Origin: Escherichia phage vB_EcoM_EC001
Strand: one strand, 5' to 3'
Sequence record: MN445185.1
Length of the DNA stretch: 64,000 nt
A model generated the notes under the pieces. The model worked only from the letters and a program-made list of their open reading frames with translations. It did no database searches and had not been told where the DNA came from. Positions 2,590-51,642 of the stretch are shown one piece after another (positions within the stretch are counted from its first letter, which is position 1; each line of letters begins with the position of its first letter). The position numbers and the translations under genes were made by a program.

Positions 2590-2617
2590 AGGCCCTTCGG
2601 GGCCTATTTTCTTTTTT
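2590..2617 (+). terminator. Intrinsic terminator (hairpin AGGCCC-TTCG-GGGCCT plus T-run)
   Basis: Perfect 6-bp GC stem, TTCG loop, followed by ATTTTCTTTTTT. Confidence 0.7.
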
Positions 2618-2628
2618 AGGACGTTGCA

Positions 2629-9610: not shown

Positions 9611-9657
9611 ATAAAAGGTACCTACCTCCCTTCGGGGAGGTAGGGCCTTTATTTTCT
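9611..9657. terminator. Bidirectional intrinsic terminator (end of minus-strand operon and of 9033..9581)
   Basis: CCTACCTCCC-TTCG-GGGAGGTAGG hairpin flanked by A-run and T-run. Confidence 0.7.
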
Positions 9658-36251: not shown

Positions 36252-36302
36252 AATATCTCAGATATATATTACTTAGGTGAGAGTTAAGAGATTAACTCAA
36301 CT

Positions 36303-36332
36303 GGCTACCCTCGGGTAGCCTATTCTTTTTTA
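36303..36332 (+). terminator. Intrinsic terminator
   Basis: GGCTACC-CTCG-GGTAGCC hairpin followed by TATTCTTTTTT. Confidence 0.65.
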
Positions 36333-36356
36333 AACCAATCGACTGTAGAGCAAAAC

Positions 36357-39388: not shown

Positions 39389-39421
39389 GGAACCCTTCGG
39401 GGTTCCATTTCTTCTTTTTTA
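39389..39421 (+). terminator. Intrinsic terminator
   Basis: GGAACCC-TTCG-GGGTTCC hairpin followed by ATTTCTTCTTTTTT. Confidence 0.7.
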
Positions 39422-39473
39422 CGCATGACCTTTTGGATATGAACGACTAATACTTTCTCATTAGAAGGCAAAC

Positions 39474-41984
39474 ATGCTCAAGGTCGAACGTATCATTTTG
39501 AAAGGATTTACCGGCATGGGGTTACATGAAATCGAAACGTTTGATTTCACCCTCAAGTCCACCGTTACCATCATCCTCGGCGGTAACGGCTGCGGTAAAA
39601 CAAGCCTCCTATCTGTTTTTCTCCCCATAGCTCCAGCAAAATCTGAATTCCGTGAAGGTGGTTCTTACACTAACTACGCGTTAGTCGGGGACGACCGTCT
39701 TAAGTTTGAAGTCCTGCGTCGTGGGTCTTCTCTGTCTTGTAGTATCTTCAACATCACTAAAGGTGTTTCCGTCGTAGACTCGGTAAACGCCAAAGTTTAC
39801 AACTCCATGGTGGAGCAATTAACCGGAATCACCAAAGAAATCAAAGAGTTAATTAATGGTGAGACCTTATTAACTGACGCCACTACCGAAGTTCGTCGTA
39901 AATGGTTTACGTTAATGTCAGAATCTGATCTGACGTACGTTGTTGGTTGTTATCGTCGTCTGCGTAAACTCGCTTCCAGTTTAAGTGGGGCCATTGAGCA
40001 CACCGGCCGTAAAATCGGTGAGGCAAAAATGCGCGTGGTGGACGATGAAGAAGATCGTGCACGTTTGGAAGTTCGTTTGAAAGAACTGGACGTTGAGCTT
40101 CAGGAACTAAACCGCACCATTGAAGCGAGACCCGGTTTAGATAACGCCGTTTCGGTTGATAGTATCCGGAAACGCATTGCTTCGTTGCAACCGGCTGTAA
40201 AACTCATTATGGAGCGTTATGGTGTTCTGCCTTCTGACGAACTGATTAACGAGTTTCAAAGTCGTGTAGTTGCCTGGCGTGAGCAAGCTGCCTCTGCTGA
40301 AACTGAATGCAACATGTACAATAAAGAGTTGTCACAGCTACTGGATGAGGAGTCGCGTCAAGCGTATCTGATGCGCAACCATACCGGTCTAAAACAAACA
40401 ATCGACAGCTTAAAACAGGAACTGGCAACGTTCCAACAGAACTGGATGTTCCCGGCTCTGTTTGAAGGTACCCGCATCGATGTGGATAGCATTCAGAACG
40501 CGTTAAACGATGCCTGTAACTGGAATTTACCGTTGTCCATGCATCTGGACCAGTTAAAGACAACAGAGCGCCTGGGAGCGTTAGAGAAGCGTTTACAGGG
40601 TATGGATTTAACCTCTGCGGGTCTATCTGAAAAGCTGCAACGTTGTGAGAATGTGCTACACGGTTTATACCACGACCGTCAACACTTCTTAGAAACTGCA
40701 GAAGTTGATTGTCCACAGTGTAACCACCGTTTCCGTCCTGGGATTCGTAAGTCGTTACCTGAAATTGAAAAGGCCATCAACGATAATGAAGGTTGGAAGA
40801 AGCAGCTGAAAGACGAAATGGATAGTCTTTTGCGTGACCGCAAAGAGATTGAAGAGGACGTCCGTAGCTTACGTACGATTCGCGAAATCGTCATGTCGTA
40901 TTCCAATCATCCCGTTGTCGGTTTGTTTTTCCGTAAACTGCAGGAGCTGGATATCTTCACCACGGCGCGGGATCGTTACGGTGCCATTGCACGTGCCTTT
41001 ACTGAAGAGTTAGATTCGGCCATGATGTATCTGCGTCAATCGGCGAAGCTTGCAACAGCGGAACGGGAATGGCAAGAGGCTGTTGCCGCAGTAGGTAACG
41101 TTGATGGTGCGCTGAGCCAGAAAATTGAACATATCCGTTCACAACTGGATGGGGCTAACCGTCGACTGATAGAATACCGCAGACAAGCCAATGAGCTGGA
41201 ACGCGAAACCACCCAACTGCAACAAACCAAAGAAGCAATCGAACGTTTCCAAAAGGGCTACGAACATCTGGTATCGGAAATGAACATCTCCGTTAACAAC
41301 GTCGTGGTTCGCGAGTTGTTAAACCGACGCGAAGCGAAGCTCGATGCGTATACTTCCGCTCGTGAACGGTTTCGTCAAATGGAAGGGGCTATTGCACGTT
41401 TAGCGGAACTGGAAAAAGAGCAAGCTGAATTGCTTAAAGAGCATCACCATGCCAGATTGATTATCAATGCCGTCTCACCCGAAAAAGGATTATTGCGTCG
41501 TTACTTTTATGCTGCGATTACCCGCATCATGGATTTAATGAATCGGTATATCGAAATGGTGTGGGCATATCCGATGCAGGTTATTCCATGCGATCTAACC
41601 GACGGGGATTTGGATTATACTTTCCCGGTACGATTAAAAGACCATGAAGAACTGGTGCCGGATGTGAAGAAAGGTTCGAAGGCACAGCGTATTATCTTTA
41701 ACATGATGTTTCGTTTAACGGCGTATAAAGCGCTTGGTTTACAAAACTATCCTTTGTTATTGGATGAACCCTCTGAAGGCATGGATGAGGAACACAAAAA
41801 TCGACTGGTCAACTTCATTAAATCGTTGGCGTTGTCGGGAGAGTTTTCTCAATTGCTGGTCGTTTCGCATGAAGCGGAAGTTCATTCTAAACTTAACGAA
41901 GCCACCTACTGTGTCGTGGAGCCAGAAGGTGTAACGCTTCCACCGGTTTATAACGAAGGGGTAATAATCAAATATGCATCATAA
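39474..41984 (+). CDS. Rad50/SbcC-family ATPase with coiled coil and central CxxC zinc hook
   Basis: N-terminal Walker A GGNGCGKTS; central CPQC in the middle of a long coiled-coil-like region; C-terminal Walker B LLLDEPSEGMD and H-loop VVSHE. Confidence 0.8.
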   Translation: MLKVERIILKGFTGMGLHEIETFDFTLKSTVTIILGGNGCGKTSLLSVFLPIAPAKSEFREGGSYTNYALVGDDRLKFEVLRRGSSLSCSIFNITKGVSVVDSVNAKVYNSMVEQLTGITKEIKELINGETLLTDATTEVRRKWFTLMSESDLTYVVGCYRRLRKLASSLSGAIEHTGRKIGEAKMRVVDDEEDRARLEVRLKELDVELQELNRTIEARPGLDNAVSVDSIRKRIASLQPAVKLIMERYGVLPSDELINEFQSRVVAWREQAASAETECNMYNKELSQLLDEESRQAYLMRNHTGLKQTIDSLKQELATFQQNWMFPALFEGTRIDVDSIQNALNDACNWNLPLSMHLDQLKTTERLGALEKRLQGMDLTSAGLSEKLQRCENVLHGLYHDRQHFLETAEVDCPQCNHRFRPGIRKSLPEIEKAINDNEGWKKQLKDEMDSLLRDRKEIEEDVRSLRTIREIVMSYSNHPVVGLFFRKLQELDIFTTARDRYGAIARAFTEELDSAMMYLRQSAKLATAEREWQEAVAAVGNVDGALSQKIEHIRSQLDGANRRLIEYRRQANELERETTQLQQTKEAIERFQKGYEHLVSEMNISVNNVVVRELLNRREAKLDAYTSARERFRQMEGAIARLAELEKEQAELLKEHHHARLIINAVSPEKGLLRRYFYAAITRIMDLMNRYIEMVWAYPMQVIPCDLTDGDLDYTFPVRLKDHEELVPDVKKGSKAQRIIFNMMFRLTAYKALGLQNYPLLLDEPSEGMDEEHKNRLVNFIKSLALSGEFSQLLVVSHEAEVHSKLNEATYCVVEPEGVTLPPVYNEGVIIKYAS

Positions 41985-42165
41985 AGGTTGGCGCTTATGG
42001 GCTTGGTGGGGTTTTCAGTTCCTTCAGTTTGTTGTGATGGTACTGTACCTCTCCTTTTGTGCAACCGTAGTGGTTATCGCTGCGGTCGTTTATTTAGCTG
42101 CTGCTCTTAAAGAACGTCTGTTCGACACGCGTTGTGAGTGGCGAGATATAGGAGAACGGACATGA
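41974..42165 (+). CDS. Small hydrophobic membrane protein
   Basis: 63 aa; hydrophobic stretch FQFLQFVVMVLYLSFCATVVVIAAVVYLAAAL. Confidence 0.4.
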   Translation: MHHKGWRLWAWWGFQFLQFVVMVLYLSFCATVVVIAAVVYLAAALKERLFDTRCEWRDIGERT

Positions 42166-42266
42166 TTGAAGGTATCGTATTAACCGGTATTGCACTGTGG
42201 TTGATTCGTGGTGCCTGGGGTTGGATTATCCGCACGAAAGGATGGGCATTCCATGGCAAGACGTAA
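42162..42266 (+). CDS. Small hydrophobic peptide (34 aa)
   Basis: ATG preceded by GGAGAA; MIEGIVLTGIALWLIRGAWGWII...; below the ORF-track length cutoff, my own translation. Confidence 0.35.
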   Translation: MIEGIVLTGIALWLIRGAWGWIIRTKGWAFHGKT

Positions 42267-42444
42267 ACCTGGTCGTTTAAAGTTTTGGGCAGTTGTGGTA
42301 ATGCACACTGTGGTGCTACTCGGTATTTTCATGTCTCGCGCTACGCCTGCCTTTTGGGGCTTAGTTGTTTTGGTGTTCTTAGAAGGGGTTTACTTCGGTA
42401 ATCTGTGGAGCAAGCCCCCCGCGTTTAAGGGACCCGGCTTATGA
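42253..42444 (+). CDS. Small hydrophobic membrane protein
   Basis: Start at internal ATG (MARRKPGRLKFWAVVVMHTVVLLGIFM...); one or two TM-like segments. Confidence 0.4.
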   Translation: MARRKPGRLKFWAVVVMHTVVLLGIFMSRATPAFWGLVVLVFLEGVYFGNLWSKPPAFKGPGL

Positions 42445-42572
42445 CAGTCGTGAATAGTGTCAACGCAGCCATGATTGCAACAGGTGCGTATGATGGTGCC
42501 ACCTGGACAGACCTTGGCATTACGATTATCATCTGTGCAATCGGAGCATTTCTGGCATCATGGTTATTTTAG
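42441..42572 (+). CDS. Small hydrophobic peptide (43 aa)
   Basis: ATGA start/stop overlap with the previous gene; ...LGITIIICAIGAFLASWLF; my own translation. Confidence 0.35.
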   Translation: MTVVNSVNAAMIATGAYDGATWTDLGITIIICAIGAFLASWLF

Positions 42573-43110
42573 TGAAGTGGGTTGGGTGTATCATCTGTAG
42601 CCTGGTACTAGGAGCAGGCGCATACGCCCTAGGCGCAATCCTTGCATTGACGCAAGGTTGGTTTTAACAGGAGGGTAATTACGAAGTGGGAGAAGTATCA
42701 TGTAACAGTGAAACAGTCTCTGATCCCGTGGTCGTGGGTTCAGGGGCGGCCGTGCCAACCCGGCGTATCGTTCTTTCGAGCGCGGGGATGGCTATAGGGT
42801 CTTCAAAGAACCTTCTAGCAGACATCGCGGAAGTCTGCGGGCCGGATGATTTTGCAGTTTCACGTACAGTCGGGGAAGACTGGCGTGGTAATCAGAAGCG
42901 CCATGAGCGAATGTGGCGACGGAAGGTTACCTCAGCATCGCAGCGTTTTCAACGACGTTGTTGATCAAAGACACGGTTCCGATAGAGAACTGGTCTTTAC
43001 CTGCAGCGGTATACACCGCTTAAGTTTACCGGTAAACTTAAGAAAACACAAACGCAATTCTTCGTTACTCGCTTTCATCGCAGGTGAAAGCTCACTTAGG
43101 AATTCAGCTC

Positions 43111-43599
43111 ATGGCCGAAATTGTCATTCTTTCCTCATCCTCAGATTTAACGGAAGCACAAAATAAACAGCTGTTGGGGCTGCATTATAAATTTCTGAAC
43201 CACCAACGTACCATACTCCATATCGAAAAAGGTGAGATTCCGAACCTCACTCTGGAGAAACTGTTGGCGGGGAACCGTGCTTGTGTTGCTCTGGAAGGGG
43301 GTACCCCTGTTGGTTACTGTTTGTATCGCGTAATCGCTGGGGTTCTGAAGATTCGTACGATGTTCGTGTCTGAAATGGCACGCCGTCGTAAAACGATGAC
43401 GCAGATTTTTGATGCGCTTGATGTGAATGAACGGTTCACCAGTGCGCATGGGGGAATATACGCTTGCCAGGAAGCTGGTATTGCGTTCTTTACCGCTCGC
43501 GGTTTTGACAAGACCGTCTCTACAGACGGACAATGGCTTGAATTTAAGAAGCAGGTTCCTGCGGAAGCAGATGAACCTTTAAGGACTGCGGTAGCGTAG
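43111..43599 (+). CDS. Hypothetical protein, weakly GNAT-acetyltransferase-like
   Basis: Start at MAEIVILSS; C-terminal ...AGIAFFTARGFDKT resembles a GNAT motif B; the Q/RxxGxG motif A is not convincing. Confidence 0.3.
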   Translation: MAEIVILSSSSDLTEAQNKQLLGLHYKFLNHQRTILHIEKGEIPNLTLEKLLAGNRACVALEGGTPVGYCLYRVIAGVLKIRTMFVSEMARRRKTMTQIFDALDVNERFTSAHGGIYACQEAGIAFFTARGFDKTVSTDGQWLEFKKQVPAEADEPLRTAVA

Positions 43600-43670
43600 T
43601 CCTGTTTTAGCACTCCTTACGATTATGCCTCACTATGAGTGGGGTATTTTTTACGCGAGGAGTGCTATTT

Positions 43671-43880
43671 ATGTTTCACCGTCCTGGGTTTTCAGCTTTA
43701 AACACCGATGTCTGTTGGGCTGAGTACGAACGGGCGAAGGAGTTCTTACCCGTAAATCCAAAACACATCAACGTGGGTACTATCGGGCGTGTTGCGTTTG
43801 ATGATACTCCGCTGAGTACGTGTATTAAAGCAGCGCTTGGTACGCTGCCGGCGTCTATAGTTATTGAGGAATTAAAATGA
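43671..43880 (+). CDS. Hypothetical small protein
   Basis: ATG after RBS GAGGAG; stop overlaps the next start. Confidence 0.4.
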   Translation: MFHRPGFSALNTDVCWAEYERAKEFLPVNPKHINVGTIGRVAFDDTPLSTCIKAALGTLPASIVIEELK

Positions 43881-44395
43881 CGGACATTCGTGTTGACATA
43901 TATGGGGAAATTCATACCACGGCCGATCGTAATCGTGTTGAATGGGCGATCATCGATAACCATCGGAAAAAACCATACGATTTTTTACTGTGTGAAGAAC
44001 TGGGGCCGTATGAATATCACACTGCAAAAGCGCAAGATAAGGCATTAAAGGAGAAGATGTACTCTATTGGGCCCATGGGGCTGGAGTTGGCTAAGAAACT
44101 CGGCATCCCTGCTATTGGGATCGATGACTGGAGCGATGCAACCTACGCTAAAGATATCAAGGATAAAAAGGGAAGGGCTGTAAACTTTAGCCGTTCTTTT
44201 TATATTCGTGAAGCTAAAATGGTTGAAAAAATTAAAAAGTATATGGCAAAAGGACGTTGTGCTGTTATGCTCGGCGACTCACACTTGCGCACCACGAAAA
44301 CCAAAGAGCTTGGTGGTGCGTCCCTTATCTGGGAAACATTTAAGGATAATCCTGAAGTGAAGTTTCACAGGAGCCCTAAACGCGAGATTGATTAA
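43877..44395 (+). CDS. Hypothetical protein
   Basis: 172 aa ORF. Confidence 0.5.
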   Translation: MTDIRVDIYGEIHTTADRNRVEWAIIDNHRKKPYDFLLCEELGPYEYHTAKAQDKALKEKMYSIGPMGLELAKKLGIPAIGIDDWSDATYAKDIKDKKGRAVNFSRSFYIREAKMVEKIKKYMAKGRCAVMLGDSHLRTTKTKELGGASLIWETFKDNPEVKFHRSPKREID

Positions 44396-44413
44396 ATCTA
44401 AAGGAGCATTAAA

Positions 44414-44836
44414 ATGGTTACCGCTATTCGCGAAACAAAATCACTATACGATCATTTATCAGAAGAAGAAACAGCCTTATTCTACGACCTGTTACCTGAA
44501 ACCAAAGCAAACGTTCAGTGGTGGTTACGTTTAGCGTTACGTGATAAAGTTGGGGAAACGCCGGTTAGTATTCTCGCGCACACGTTGGACATGACGCCCA
44601 TGATTGAAATCGCGATTACCCGCCCTAAATTCTGGCGGCCTGGTATGGTGCGTGAGGCGTATCTACTCCAACGCTTAGGTGTTGACCCGGAGAAGTGTTG
44701 GCGTAAGATGGACGACCATCGCTACCGTGAAGAAATTACGAATAGCCTCAACACTATGTTGGCAATGAAACGACTCGGTATCGAACACGAAGGTTTCGAG
44801 TCAGCGGTACAAACCTGGGTGAAAAGGAATAGCTAA
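44414..44836 (+). CDS. Hypothetical protein
   Basis: 140 aa ORF with RBS AAGGAG. Confidence 0.5.
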   Translation: MVTAIRETKSLYDHLSEEETALFYDLLPETKANVQWWLRLALRDKVGETPVSILAHTLDMTPMIEIAITRPKFWRPGMVREAYLLQRLGVDPEKCWRKMDDHRYREEITNSLNTMLAMKRLGIEHEGFESAVQTWVKRNS

Positions 44837-45536: not shown

Positions 45537-45635
45537 ATATTATCATCAGGGCACATTACAAAGGAGCACAATGCCGTCCGCGCCGTCTTCCCGGATTGGG
45601 AACGGAAAAGTATAAATCCGTTTGGAGATACATCC

Positions 45636-51557: not shown

Positions 51558-51597
51558 CTCCCTCTTACCTTCGGGTAAGAGGGGATTTCCTTTTTTA
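51558..51597 (+). terminator. Intrinsic terminator
   Basis: CCCTCTTACC-TTCG-GGTAAGAGGG hairpin followed by T-run. Confidence 0.7.
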
Positions 51598-51642
51598 CGT
51601 TAATAGTCAATAGTGTGATATATAATCTCGTGGAGAGTTGAA

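What the first reader, a model, noticed from the sequence alone, without database searches (positions are those of the whole stretch)
42669..43110. About 440 bp stretch with ambiguous, overlapping reading frames
Between the small-peptide cluster and the 43111 gene, the only ORFs (42686..42964 from a GTG, and 42846..43166) overlap in different frames and have weak start contexts. The region is GC-rich and could carry a frameshifted gene, a gene with an unusual start, or a structured RNA.
Basis: seen in the sequence. Interest (0 to 1): 0.25.

Follow-up and report, generated by a model that had tools for sequence, protein, structure and literature searches.

The report
Missed small phage gene plus hairpins
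The "ambiguous" 440 bp is an ordinary 92-codon protein gene with a GTG start, found in SPN3US-like jumbo phages, followed by a hairpin-rich spacer before the next gene; the second, overlapping reading frame is a by-product and not a gene.

Summary
The window comes from an SPN3US-like jumbo phage (Seoulvirus; 99% identical to Salmonella phage JN03).

**Which frame is real.** Comparison with diverged relatives settles it. ORF 42686..42964 (GTG start, 92 aa) is the gene.
- It is open in all 20 related loci examined.
- In the overlap it shows 8 synonymous to 3 non-synonymous codon changes against Erwinia phage pEa_SNUABM_29. The other two frames show 0:11 and 1:10.
- It matches phrog_15402 (E 8.6e-12).
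- It has ATG-started, annotated homologues in the same syntenic slot in Machinavirus phages.
- The identical ORF is already annotated in Salmonella phage SPFM2.

ORF 42846..43166 and the 36-aa frame-3 ORF are spurious. They carry stops or frame breaks in relatives and show no synonymous-change signature.

**The protein.** It belongs to a narrow jumbo-phage family. Its N-terminal part is acidic and fast-evolving, and it ends in an arginine-rich C-terminal helix. Its function is unknown.

**The spacer.** The remaining 146 nt (42965-43110) is an intercistronic spacer. Its hairpins are conserved by compensatory changes. It has no canonical terminator and no Rfam match. One hairpin sits just upstream of the acetyltransferase ribosome-binding site in every genus.

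**Verdict.** Ordinary; the ambiguity is an annotation problem. Low interest.

The parts
42669..42675 (+). Shine-Dalgarno sequence AGGAGGG of the small gene, 10 nt upstream of the GTG. It lies directly after the TAA (42665-42667) of the last small hydrophobic-peptide gene.
   Evidence: Sequence. A GGAGG is also present upstream of the conserved GTG in pEa_SNUABM_29 and SPAsTU.
42686..42964 (+). Real protein-coding gene: GTG start, 92 codons plus TGA. Member of phrog_15402, function unknown. N-terminal part acidic and fast-evolving; conserved motif R-x3-E-D-W-R-G-N-Q-x-R-H-E-R; arginine-rich C-terminal helix (residues about 66-91).
   Evidence: Frame open in all 20 loci. Synonymous:non-synonymous 8:3 and 9:8 in this frame, against 0:11, 0:16, 1:10 and 0:17 in the other two frames. 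PHROG hit E 8.6e-12. Homologues in Machinavirus and Erskinevirus in the same synteny. The identical ORF is annotated in SPFM2. The GTGGGAGA start block is invariant; in SPAsTU a stop codon lies directly upstream of the GTG.
42846..43166 (+). Spurious 'shadow' ORF (106 aa) in the +1 frame. It overlaps both the small gene and the start of the acetyltransferase gene.
   Evidence: 0 synonymous to 11 and 16 non-synonymous changes. Premature stop in SPN3US and SaP7, no equivalent start in SPAsTU. Codon score -0.12 per codon.
42913..43023 (+). Spurious 36-aa ORF in the third frame, the frame annotated as gp076 in SPN3US and as SEGD1_195.
   Evidence: 1:10 and 0:17 synonymous:non-synonymous. The frame is broken by 5-nt and 4-nt indels in pEa_SNUABM_29 and SPAsTU just after the small gene's stop. 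Its codon score is gene-like (0.36), which probably explains the mis-annotation.
42967..42998 (+). Hairpin 1, starting 2 nt after the stop codon. Stem of 11-12 pairs, loop CGAUAGA-like, no U-tract after it.
   Evidence: MFE -13.5 kcal/mol, z -3.6. Five of 11 pairs keep pairing through changes on both sides. An equivalent hairpin is present in Erskinevirus phiEaH2.
43005..43020 (+). Hairpin 2 (AGCGGU AUAC ACCGCU).
   Evidence: GCGGU/ACCGC changes to GCAGU/ACUGC in pEa_SNUABM_29 and SPAsTU. 100% of cells are paired.
43019..43042 (.). Perfect 24-bp palindrome CTTAAGTTTACC|GGTAAACTTAAG. Only the right half (CACCGGTAnACTTAAG) is conserved. The perfect form is specific to the window and Lh1B lineage.
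   Evidence: the only exact copies in the window are its two arms. Alignment.
43027..43068 (+). Conserved sequence block ACCGGTAAACTTAAGAAAACACAAACGCAATTCTTCGTTAC. Recognisable in Machinavirus as GGTAAAnnAAGA...ACACGCAA...CTTCGTTAC. Role unknown; candidate protein- or polymerase-recognition site.
   Evidence: Not repeated elsewhere in the window.
43071..43091 (+). Hairpin 4 (GCUUUCAUC GCA GGUGAAAGC). It ends 6 nt upstream of the ribosome-binding sequence AGGA of the acetyltransferase gene.
   Evidence: A hairpin sits at the same position, with unrelated stem sequences, in Seoulvirus, Erskinevirus and Machinavirus. z-scores run from -1.1 to -3.0.
43093..43113 (+). Conserved CACUUAGGAA (Shine-Dalgarno AGGA at 43098-43101), a 9-nt spacer, and the ATG (43111) of the GNAT acetyltransferase gene (43111..43599).
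   Evidence: CTCATGGCCGAAAT is invariant. phrog_3810 acetyltransferase E 8.7e-42. Pfam GNAT hits are weak.

Best explanation
The stretch has two ordinary components of a rightward operon in an SPN3US-like (Seoulvirus) jumbo phage. That operon runs SMC-like gene, small hydrophobic peptides, this gene, GNAT acetyltransferase.

**1. The gene, 42686..42964.** This is a genuine gene translated from a GTG preceded by AGGAGGG. Its 92-aa product belongs to a narrow family, phrog_15402, restricted to Seoulvirus, Machinavirus and Erskinevirus-type phages. The N-terminal part is acidic, poorly ordered and fast-evolving. The conserved core is R-x3-E-D-W-R-G-N-Q-x-R-H-E-R. The C-terminus is a predicted arginine-rich helix. 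I infer, without having shown it, that this basic helix binds a polyanionic partner, most likely RNA or another nucleic acid. The two other ORFs (42846..43166 and 42913..43023) are non-coding shadows of the real frame.

**2. The spacer, 42965..43110.** This is a transcribed intercistronic spacer, not a terminator-promoter junction. It lacks the GC-stem/TTCG-loop/TTTTTTAC terminators seen at other gene boundaries in the window. The first such terminator on this strand comes after the acetyltransferase gene (43625-43655). The spacer folds into conserved hairpins. Hairpins 1 and 2 lie just after the stop codon. Hairpin 4 lies just 5' of the acetyltransferase Shine-Dalgarno sequence, which stays unpaired. 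I infer that these hairpins act as mRNA-stability, processing or insulating elements that set acetyltransferase expression.

**Shown:** the coding frame, the start position, family membership, synteny, and hairpin conservation with compensatory changes.
**Inferred:** nucleic-acid binding by the protein, read-through transcription, and the role of the hairpins.

The confidence of 0.85 refers to the core claim: the real gene is in the 42686 frame, the other ORFs are spurious, and the spacer is structured and non-coding. The inferred roles are much less certain, about 0.3 for nucleic-acid binding and about 0.55 for read-through rather than a terminator-promoter junction.
For: **Identity of the window.** 99.2% to Salmonella phage JN03 and 97.7% to SPN3US.

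**Frame.**
- Open from the conserved GTGGGAGA to the conserved C-terminus in all six aligned genomes and all 20 loci.
- In 42846-42961, against pEa_SNUABM_29: 27 identical, 8 synonymous, 3 non-synonymous codons in the ORF1 frame, versus 0:11 and 1:10 in the others. Against SPAsTU: 9:8 versus 0:16 and 0:17.
- Length differences among lineages are whole codons (92, 89 and 83 aa).

**Start.**
- AAGTGGGAGA is invariant.
- In SPAsTU a TAA lies directly before the GTG. In pEa_SNUABM_29 no in-frame ATG precedes the conserved region.
- The SPAsTU N-terminus aligns with ATG-started Machinavirus proteins.

**Family.**
- phrog_15402, E 8.6e-12.
- 17 clusters among 5.8 billion proteins.
- 10 representatives at E<=0.001 among 1.84 billion, one of them a repeat-protein artefact.
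- Syntenic annotated homologues: Caitlin gp200, ChrisDB gp213, Machina gp201.
- The same ORF is annotated as SPFM2_00189.

**Protein features.**
- AF2 gives only a C-terminal helix, residues 66-91, at pLDDT about 70-79. A second family member gave similar secondary structure at lower confidence (mean pLDDT 52, none >=70; helices 9-18 and 58-78).
- Net charge is -3 for residues 1-62 and +7 for 63-92. Five homologues show the same acidic-N, basic-C split.

**Spacer.**
- Fold z-score -3.59.
- Hairpins 1 and 2: 98% of cells paired, 6 pairs changed on both sides, 0 of 500 shuffles reach the covariation score, and slid controls fall to 22-47% paired.
- Hairpin 4 is present in every genus with different stem sequences.
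- G-U pairs indicate the + strand.
- Canonical terminators occur elsewhere in the window but not here.
Against: - No transcript, ribosome-profiling or peptide evidence was available.
- ORF1's codon usage is atypical (-0.02 per codon against 0.37 +/- 0.11 for genes).
- Among close relatives, 10 of 11 amino-acid-changing codons fall in residues 4-33. The N-terminal third is therefore barely constrained, and its translation in this lineage rests on openness, homology and the conserved start.
- Both structure models are low-confidence (pLDDT 56 and 52), so 'basic helix binds nucleic acid' rests on composition only.
- The covariation rests on only three independent Seoulvirus lineages (6 sequences).
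- Some hairpin-4 z-scores are weak (-1.1, -1.5).
- Read-through transcription is inferred only from the absence of recognisable signals. Middle and late promoters of these phages are poorly defined (PMC7598289), so an internal promoter in the conserved block 43027-43068 cannot be excluded.
Confidence: 0.85

Rival explanations
1. The real product comes from ORF 42846..43166, as annotated in phage Lh1B (an equivalent frame is annotated in pEa_SNUABM_29), or from a programmed +1 frameshift joining ORF1 to it.
For: The ORF is open for 106 codons in the window and in Lh1B, and for 74 codons in pEa_SNUABM_29. It is annotated there.
Against: There are 0 synonymous to 11 and 16 non-synonymous changes in this frame. 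In SPN3US and SaP7 it is stopped two codons beyond ORF1's stop, and SPAsTU has no start. There is no Shine-Dalgarno sequence. The codon score is negative. It runs 56 nt into the well-conserved acetyltransferase gene.
Confidence: 0.02
2. The 36-40 aa frame-3 ORF (42913..43023, SPN3US gp076 / SEGD1_195) is the gene.
For: It is annotated in SPN3US and SEGD1. Its codon-usage score is gene-like, 0.36 per codon.
Against: There are 1:10 and 0:17 synonymous:non-synonymous changes in the overlap. The frame is destroyed by 5-nt and 4-nt indels in pEa_SNUABM_29 and SPAsTU. Its 3' part consists of hairpins 1 and 2.
Confidence: 0.02
3. The region 42669-42964 is a non-coding structured RNA and the open frame is accidental.
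For: GC is 0.56. Fold z-score is -2.07. Codon usage is atypical. Among close relatives substitutions show no 3-periodicity, 8/6/6 by codon position.
Against: There is no Rfam hit at E<=10 and no tRNA or tmRNA. Protein-level homology extends to ATG-started genes in other genera, E 8.6e-12 to a PHROG. The conserved half has a clear excess of synonymous changes. Indels are whole codons.
Confidence: 0.03
4. The spacer 42965-43110 is a terminator (hairpins 1 and 2) followed by an internal phage promoter (conserved block 43027-43068). The acetyltransferase mRNA would then start just before hairpin 4 and carry it as a protective 5' stem-loop.
For: Hairpins lie right after the stop codon. A 40-nt block is conserved in sequence between genera. 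A hairpin always sits a few nucleotides downstream of CTTCGTTAC. Middle and late promoters of phiKZ-like phages have little or no recognisable consensus (PMC7598289).
Against: Hairpins 1 and 2 lack the U-tract. They look unlike the six or so canonical terminators in the same window. The block is not repeated anywhere else in 64 kb. It lacks the AT-rich, roughly 10-nt motif expected of early promoters. Machina-type phages lack most of the block.
Confidence: 0.25
5. The small basic protein and the downstream GNAT acetyltransferase form a functional pair. This could be a TacA/TacT-like antitoxin-toxin arrangement, or the small protein could be a regulator or substrate of the enzyme.
For: A small gene (76-92 aa) lies immediately upstream of a roughly 160-aa GNAT gene, and this order is conserved in three genera. 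That gene order is typical of GNAT toxin-antitoxin pairs (my own knowledge, not tested).
Against: The small protein gives no Pfam, NCBIfam or PADLOC hit, and the GNAT matches only general GNAT Pfam models weakly, with no NCBIfam or PADLOC hit. No RHH/DUF1778-like domain is present. A 75-167-nt structured spacer is unlike the usual overlap of toxin-antitoxin genes. Synteny among collinear relatives is weak evidence of linkage.
Confidence: 0.07

Closest known systems
SPFM2_00189 (VFR15938.1), hypothetical protein of Salmonella phage SPFM2
   Same: Exactly the same ORF: GTG start, 279 nt, same position between the small-peptide genes and the acetyltransferase gene. 95.7% amino-acid identity.
   Different: Nothing of substance. 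Most sister genomes (SPN3US, SEGD1, Lh1B, JN03, SaP7, SPAsTU, pEa_SNUABM_29) leave it out or annotate another frame.
phrog_15402 / Machinavirus hypothetical proteins (Caitlin gp200 YP_009292273.1, ChrisDB gp213, Machina gp201)
   Same: Same syntenic slot. Shared motifs: R-x-I-V/I...L-G, F-x-D/E-E, E-R-R-x-G-E-D-W-R-G-N/D, R-H-E-R, and the basic tail ending QRR. 32-38% identity.
   Different: These homologues start with ATG and are 76-83 aa. The window's protein starts with GTG. It carries an N-terminal extension with a conserved MG[ED]xxC and ends in an extra Cys.
Acyl carrier protein (helix I)
   Same: The family's N-terminal helix (for example IEDRVRKIVVIGLGM) resembles ACP helix I (IEERVKKIIGEQLGV). 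ACPs are the top hits among solved structures (E 0.04-1, about 31 residues).
   Different: Only one helix aligns. hhalign probability is 37%. The DSL motif with the phosphopantetheine-bearing serine is absent. No four-helix bundle is predicted. It is not an ACP.
Intercistronic or 5'-UTR stabilising and insulating hairpins of bacterial and phage mRNAs (for example the ompA 5' stem-loop; T7 intercistronic hairpins)
   Same: Short, stable hairpins after a stop codon and just 5' of an unpaired Shine-Dalgarno sequence, conserved in structure rather than sequence. The comparison with ompA and T7 comes from my own knowledge.
   Different: No processing site or stability effect has been demonstrated here. 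The stems are shorter than typical RNase III substrates.

Membership tests
phrog_15402 (uncharacterised jumbo-phage small protein family) | Significant match to the family profile over most of its length | tested here: met
   E 8.6e-12, 46 bits, residues 26-91 against profile positions 17-84 of 84.
phrog_15402 (uncharacterised jumbo-phage small protein family) | Conserved core motif E-[DN]-W-[RHQ]-G, R-H-E-R and a basic C-terminal tail | tested here: met
   R60, W66, G68 and R91 are invariant and E64 is nearly invariant across 18 sequences.
phrog_15402 (uncharacterised jumbo-phage small protein family) | Same genomic slot (SMC-like gene, small peptides, this gene, acetyltransferase) | tested here: met
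Protein-coding gene (against non-coding stretch) | One frame open in diverged relatives, excess of synonymous changes, indels in whole codons | tested here: met
Protein-coding gene (against non-coding stretch) | Codon usage typical of the genome | tested here: not met
   -0.02 log2 odds per codon, against 0.37 +/- 0.11 for genes and -0.76 +/- 0.26 for off-frames. The value is intermediate and does not outweigh the comparative evidence.
Protein-coding gene (against non-coding stretch) | Direct evidence of translation (peptides, ribosome footprints) | not testable with these tools
   No expression data were available. The one SPN3US paper opened (PMC5105663) had no mention of re-annotated or newly found genes, or of the neighbouring acetyltransferase.
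Acyl carrier protein | Conserved D-S-L motif with the phosphopantetheine-attachment serine at the start of helix II | tested here: not met
   The aligned position reads F-x-D-E-A-E-x-C-x-D-D, with no serine motif.
Acyl carrier protein | Full-length similarity or a four-helix-bundle fold | tested here: not met
   Only about 31 residues align (E 0.04; hhalign probability 37%). The models show two isolated helices at low confidence.
GNAT toxin / RHH antitoxin pair (TacAT, AtaRT, KacAT type) | Antitoxin with an RHH/DUF1778 domain | tested here: not met
   No Pfam, NCBIfam or PADLOC match for the small protein at E<=10.
GNAT toxin / RHH antitoxin pair (TacAT, AtaRT, KacAT type) | Toxicity of the GNAT and its neutralisation by the upstream protein | not testable with these tools
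   Needs co-expression experiments.
Intrinsic (rho-independent) terminator | GC-rich stem-loop followed directly by a U-tract | tested here: not met
   The scan finds none in 42965-43110. Hairpins 1 and 2 are followed by UUUACC and UUAAGU. Canonical examples in the same window end in TTTTTTAC.
Any Rfam RNA family / tRNA | Covariance-model match | tested here: not met
   No match at E<=10 inside 42669-43110. ARAGORN finds no genes in the whole window.

The most novel reading that the evidence does not exclude
The 146-nt spacer is a dedicated cis-regulatory leader that controls translation or stability of the GNAT acetyltransferase mRNA in nucleus-forming SPN3US-like phages. Its parts would be hairpins 1 and 2, the conserved 40-nt block, and the universally placed hairpin 4 next to CACUYAGGA. 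It might be bound by the arginine-rich small protein encoded just upstream, which would make the gene and leader an autoregulatory module.
Probability: 0.08. Interest if true: 0.4.

Novelty: already known. Interest (0 to 1): 0.12.

Why it matters
The value is mainly practical. Reference genomes of this phage group, including SPN3US itself, either omit a conserved small gene or annotate a wrong frame in its place. Proteomic databases and mutant screens built on those annotations will therefore miss it. The case also shows that comparing relatives about 75% identical resolves overlapping-ORF ambiguities that codon statistics get wrong: here the spurious frame-3 ORF scores as gene-like and the real gene does not. 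The conserved hairpins give a defined target for anyone studying mRNA processing or translation control in chimalliviruses. Nothing here challenges current understanding.

Tried and rejected
- **Rfam scan** at E<=10 over 41500-44500: only two chance miRNA-model hits outside the region.
- **tRNA/tmRNA scan:** none.
- **Sigma-70 promoter scan:** nothing in the region and no enrichment overall.
- **Repeated-motif searches in the window** for the palindrome half-site, the CTTCGTTAC block, the hairpin-1 loop and CACTYAGGAA: each is unique to this locus or at chance level.
- **Structure prediction,** with the window's protein and then a Machinavirus member as target: pLDDT 56 and 52. This is too poor for a fold search, so I ran none.
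- **Pfam, NCBIfam and PADLOC** for the small protein: nothing. Scattered Pfam hits among family members (MurD-like_N and others, E >= 0.005) are noise.
- **ACP lead:** similarity to one helix only, and the key serine is missing. Rejected as membership.
- **P0022,** a 787-aa hit in the exhaustive search, is a low-complexity tandem-repeat protein that matches a 24-residue stretch ten times. Artefact.
- **IMG/VR and metagenome scans** returned only the same three genera.
- **Literature:** no SPN3US transcription-start data were found, and the one SPN3US paper opened had no mention of re-annotated or newly found genes, or of the acetyltransferase.
- **PDB search with the acetyltransferase** found nothing informative.
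- **A correction to my own notes:** I first took the annotated pEa_SNUABM_29 CDS to be a truncated version of the right frame. It is the wrong, ORF2-like frame.

Full report
**Where the window comes from.** Megablast of 42400-43700 finds 35 phage records. The best is Salmonella phage JN03 (99.2%), and SPN3US is 97.7% identical. The window is therefore from an SPN3US-like jumbo phage, genus Seoulvirus. The local gene order is an SMC/SbcC-like gene (39474..41984), then a run of small hydrophobic-peptide genes (41974..42667), then the stretch in question, then a GNAT acetyltransferase gene (43111..43599).

**Checking the observation.** There is also a 36-aa ORF in the third frame, 42913..43023.
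- GC is raised only in the 5' part: 0.56 in 42600-42899, against 0.415-0.47 in 42900-43199.
- The GTG has a good AGGAGGG 10 nt upstream. The ATG of the second ORF has nothing comparable.
- Relatives annotate this stretch in four ways. SPN3US and SEGD1 annotate the frame-3 mini-ORF. Lh1B and pEa_SNUABM_29 annotate the +1 frame. JN03, SaP7 and SPAsTU annotate nothing. SPFM2 annotates the GTG ORF.

**Which frame is real.** Three more distant relatives cover the region at 76-77% nucleotide identity: Erwinia phage pEa_SNUABM_29 and Salmonella phages SPAsTU and STsAS. In a six-genome alignment and its three-frame translations, only the frame of 42686..42964 is open in all.
- It runs from an invariant AAGTGGGAGA to a nearly identical C-terminus, EDWRGNQ[KR]RHERMWR[RQ]KVTSAS[QR]RFQRRC*.
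- In the overlap 42846-42961, the codon differences against pEa_SNUABM_29 are 8 synonymous and 3 non-synonymous in this frame. They are 0:11 and 1:10 in the other two frames. Against SPAsTU the figures are 9:8 versus 0:16 and 0:17.
- The +1 ORF is stopped in SPN3US and SaP7 two codons past the real stop. The frame-3 ORF is broken by 5-nt and 4-nt indels in the distant relatives.
- The products are 92, 89 and 83 aa, so all net indels are whole codons.
- The ORF is intact in all 20 loci collected from GenBank, IMG/VR and metagenomes.

**The start codon.**
- GTGGGAGA is invariant across Seoulvirus.
- In SPAsTU a TAA directly precedes the GTG.
- In pEa_SNUABM_29 there is no in-frame ATG before the conserved region.
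- A GGAGG lies upstream in all three lineages.
- The SPAsTU N-terminus (MGDSTCKTDEEDRTKIRVLGCGI) aligns with ATG-started Machinavirus proteins (MKKENPSENDDIEDRVRKIVVIGLGM).

**The protein family.**
- The product matches phrog_15402, function unknown, at E 8.6e-12.
- tblastn finds weaker homologues in Erwinia jumbo phages. These sit in the same slot between the small-peptide genes and the acetyltransferase gene in Caitlin, ChrisDB and Machina, where they are annotated as 76-83-aa hypothetical proteins. In phiEaH2 the homologue is unannotated.
- The family is small: 17 clusters among 5.8 billion proteins and 10 representatives among 1.84 billion. One of those ten is a repeat-protein artefact.
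- Invariant residues are R60, W66, G68 and R91.
- The N-terminal part is acidic and the C-terminal 30 residues carry a net charge of +7. Five homologues show the same split.
- AlphaFold models with two different family members as target are poor (pLDDT 56 and 52). In the window's protein only a C-terminal helix reaches pLDDT about 70-79, so the models give secondary structure at best and no fold.
- Among close relatives, 10 of the 11 amino-acid-changing codons lie in residues 4-33. The N-terminus is nearly free to vary, while residues 34-92 are tightly conserved.
- No Pfam, NCBIfam or PADLOC family matches.
- The best matches among solved structures are acyl carrier proteins. Only helix I aligns (E 0.04; hhalign probability 37%), and the phosphopantetheine serine motif is missing. 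I do not file the protein as an ACP.

My working inference is that the arginine-rich helix binds RNA or another polyanion. This rests on composition only.

I trained a codon-usage log-odds score on the 34 long ORFs of the window. The real gene scores -0.02 per codon. The spurious frame-3 ORF scores 0.36. In-frame chunks of real genes average 0.37 +/- 0.11 and off-frames -0.76 +/- 0.26. Atypical composition plus a GTG start explains the inconsistent annotation.

**The last 146 nt (42965-43110).** This stretch is non-coding. Substitutions show no periodicity and indels are not multiples of three.
- It folds better than shuffles (z -3.59) into four hairpins.
- Hairpin 1 (42967-42998) and hairpin 2 (43005-43020) are kept in the diverged relatives through compensatory changes: 98% of cells are paired, 6 of 17 pairs changed on both sides, 0 of 500 shuffles reach the covariation score, and slid controls drop to 22-47% paired.
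- A homologous hairpin 1 is recognisable in Erskinevirus phiEaH2.
- Hairpin 3 is a perfect 24-bp palindrome (43019-43042) only in the window and Lh1B. Elsewhere only its right half, CACCGGTAnACTTAAG, is conserved.
- Hairpin 4 (43071-43091) sits a few nucleotides upstream of the conserved CACUYAGGA ribosome-binding region of the acetyltransferase gene. A hairpin with an unrelated stem sequence occupies that position in all three genera.
- G-U pairs place the structures on the + strand.
- None of the hairpins has a U-tract. Other gene boundaries in the same window carry textbook terminators (GC stem, TTCG loop, TTTTTTAC), and the next one on this strand follows the acetyltransferase gene.
- The motifs are not repeated elsewhere in the 64 kb, and Rfam has no match.

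I therefore read the spacer as a transcribed intercistronic segment whose hairpins affect mRNA stability, processing or translation of the downstream gene. The main rival is a non-canonical terminator plus an internal phage promoter in the conserved block 43027-43068. It cannot be excluded, because middle and late promoters of these phages have almost no known consensus (PMC7598289).

**Comparison with the known, and verdict.** The gene is already in public records as a hypothetical protein (SPFM2_00189) and belongs to an existing PHROG. It is simply missing or mis-framed in most sister genomes, including the reference SPN3US. The overlapping ORFs are shadows, there is no frameshift, and there is no RNA gene. 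The conserved hairpins are a modest, undescribed but unsurprising feature. Interest is low. The most novel reading still open is that the spacer is a dedicated regulatory leader for the acetyltransferase, perhaps bound by the small basic protein. I give that under 10%.

Noticed in passing
window 42636-42667: The last 30 nt or so of the upstream 35-aa peptide gene (ATCCTTGCATTGACGCAAGGTTGGTTTTAA, encoding ...ALTQGWF*) are almost invariant at the nucleotide level, even in the 76-77% relatives where the rest of that gene has diverged heavily. They contain a terminator-like hairpin, CCTTGC-ATTGAC-GCAAGG, followed by TTGGTTTT. This may reflect a dual coding and RNA constraint just before the small gene's ribosome-binding site.
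   Followed up: partly
window 42700-42705: A start-stop mini-ORF (ATG TAA) lies in the +1 frame, 6 nt after GGGAGA, inside codons 5-7 of the small gene. It is kept in all six aligned genomes with different codons: ATGTAA, ATGTGA, ATGTAG, GTGTAA. This could be chance, since it only requires the conserved Cys codon TGT to be followed by a codon for N, D, S or K.
   Followed up: partly
window 43019-43042: A perfect 12+12 palindrome, CTTAAGTTTACCGGTAAACTTAAG, with no spacer. By my own rough calculation about 0.004 would be expected by chance in 64 kb. SPN3US and SaP7 have an imperfect version (CTAAGCTTTACC left arm). The perfect form looks like a lineage-specific quasi-palindrome 'correction'.
   Followed up: partly
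window 41974-42667: A run of five short ORFs (35-78 aa), mostly hydrophobic, with overlapping or abutting starts and stops. They lie between the SMC-like gene and the small gene. They are annotated differently in each relative, and one matches phrog_29196.
   Followed up: no
window 2590-2620, 9620-9655, 36305-36335, 39393-39425, 51562-51600, 43625-43655: The canonical terminators in this phage share a recognisable format: a GC-rich stem, often a TTCG (or similar) tetraloop, then a T-run ending in TTTTTTAC. This could help define transcription units.
   Followed up: no
window 36252-36290, 45537-45560, 51600-51625, 63165-63185: AT-rich motifs of the type ATATATTAC / GATATTATC / GATATATAAT occur in several intergenic gaps. 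They resemble the roughly 10-nt AT-rich early-promoter motifs described for phiKZ-like phages. None occurs in the stretch studied.
   Followed up: no
GenBank LR535901-LR535917 (several SPFM phages): Matches to these records break into 10-20 pieces with many small indels. These assemblies yield truncated or frameshifted versions of the small protein (P0004-P0006: 78-79 aa, only 22% of the query aligned). This is probably sequencing or assembly error, not biology.
   Followed up: no
window 43877-44395 and homologues (L008 3364-3693, L009 3332-3664): Two genes downstream of the acetyltransferase gene, some Machinavirus records label a 109-110-aa protein 'putative elongation factor Tu'. The label looks doubtful for a protein of that size. 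A macro-domain (Appr-1-p processing) gene follows a few genes later.
   Followed up: no
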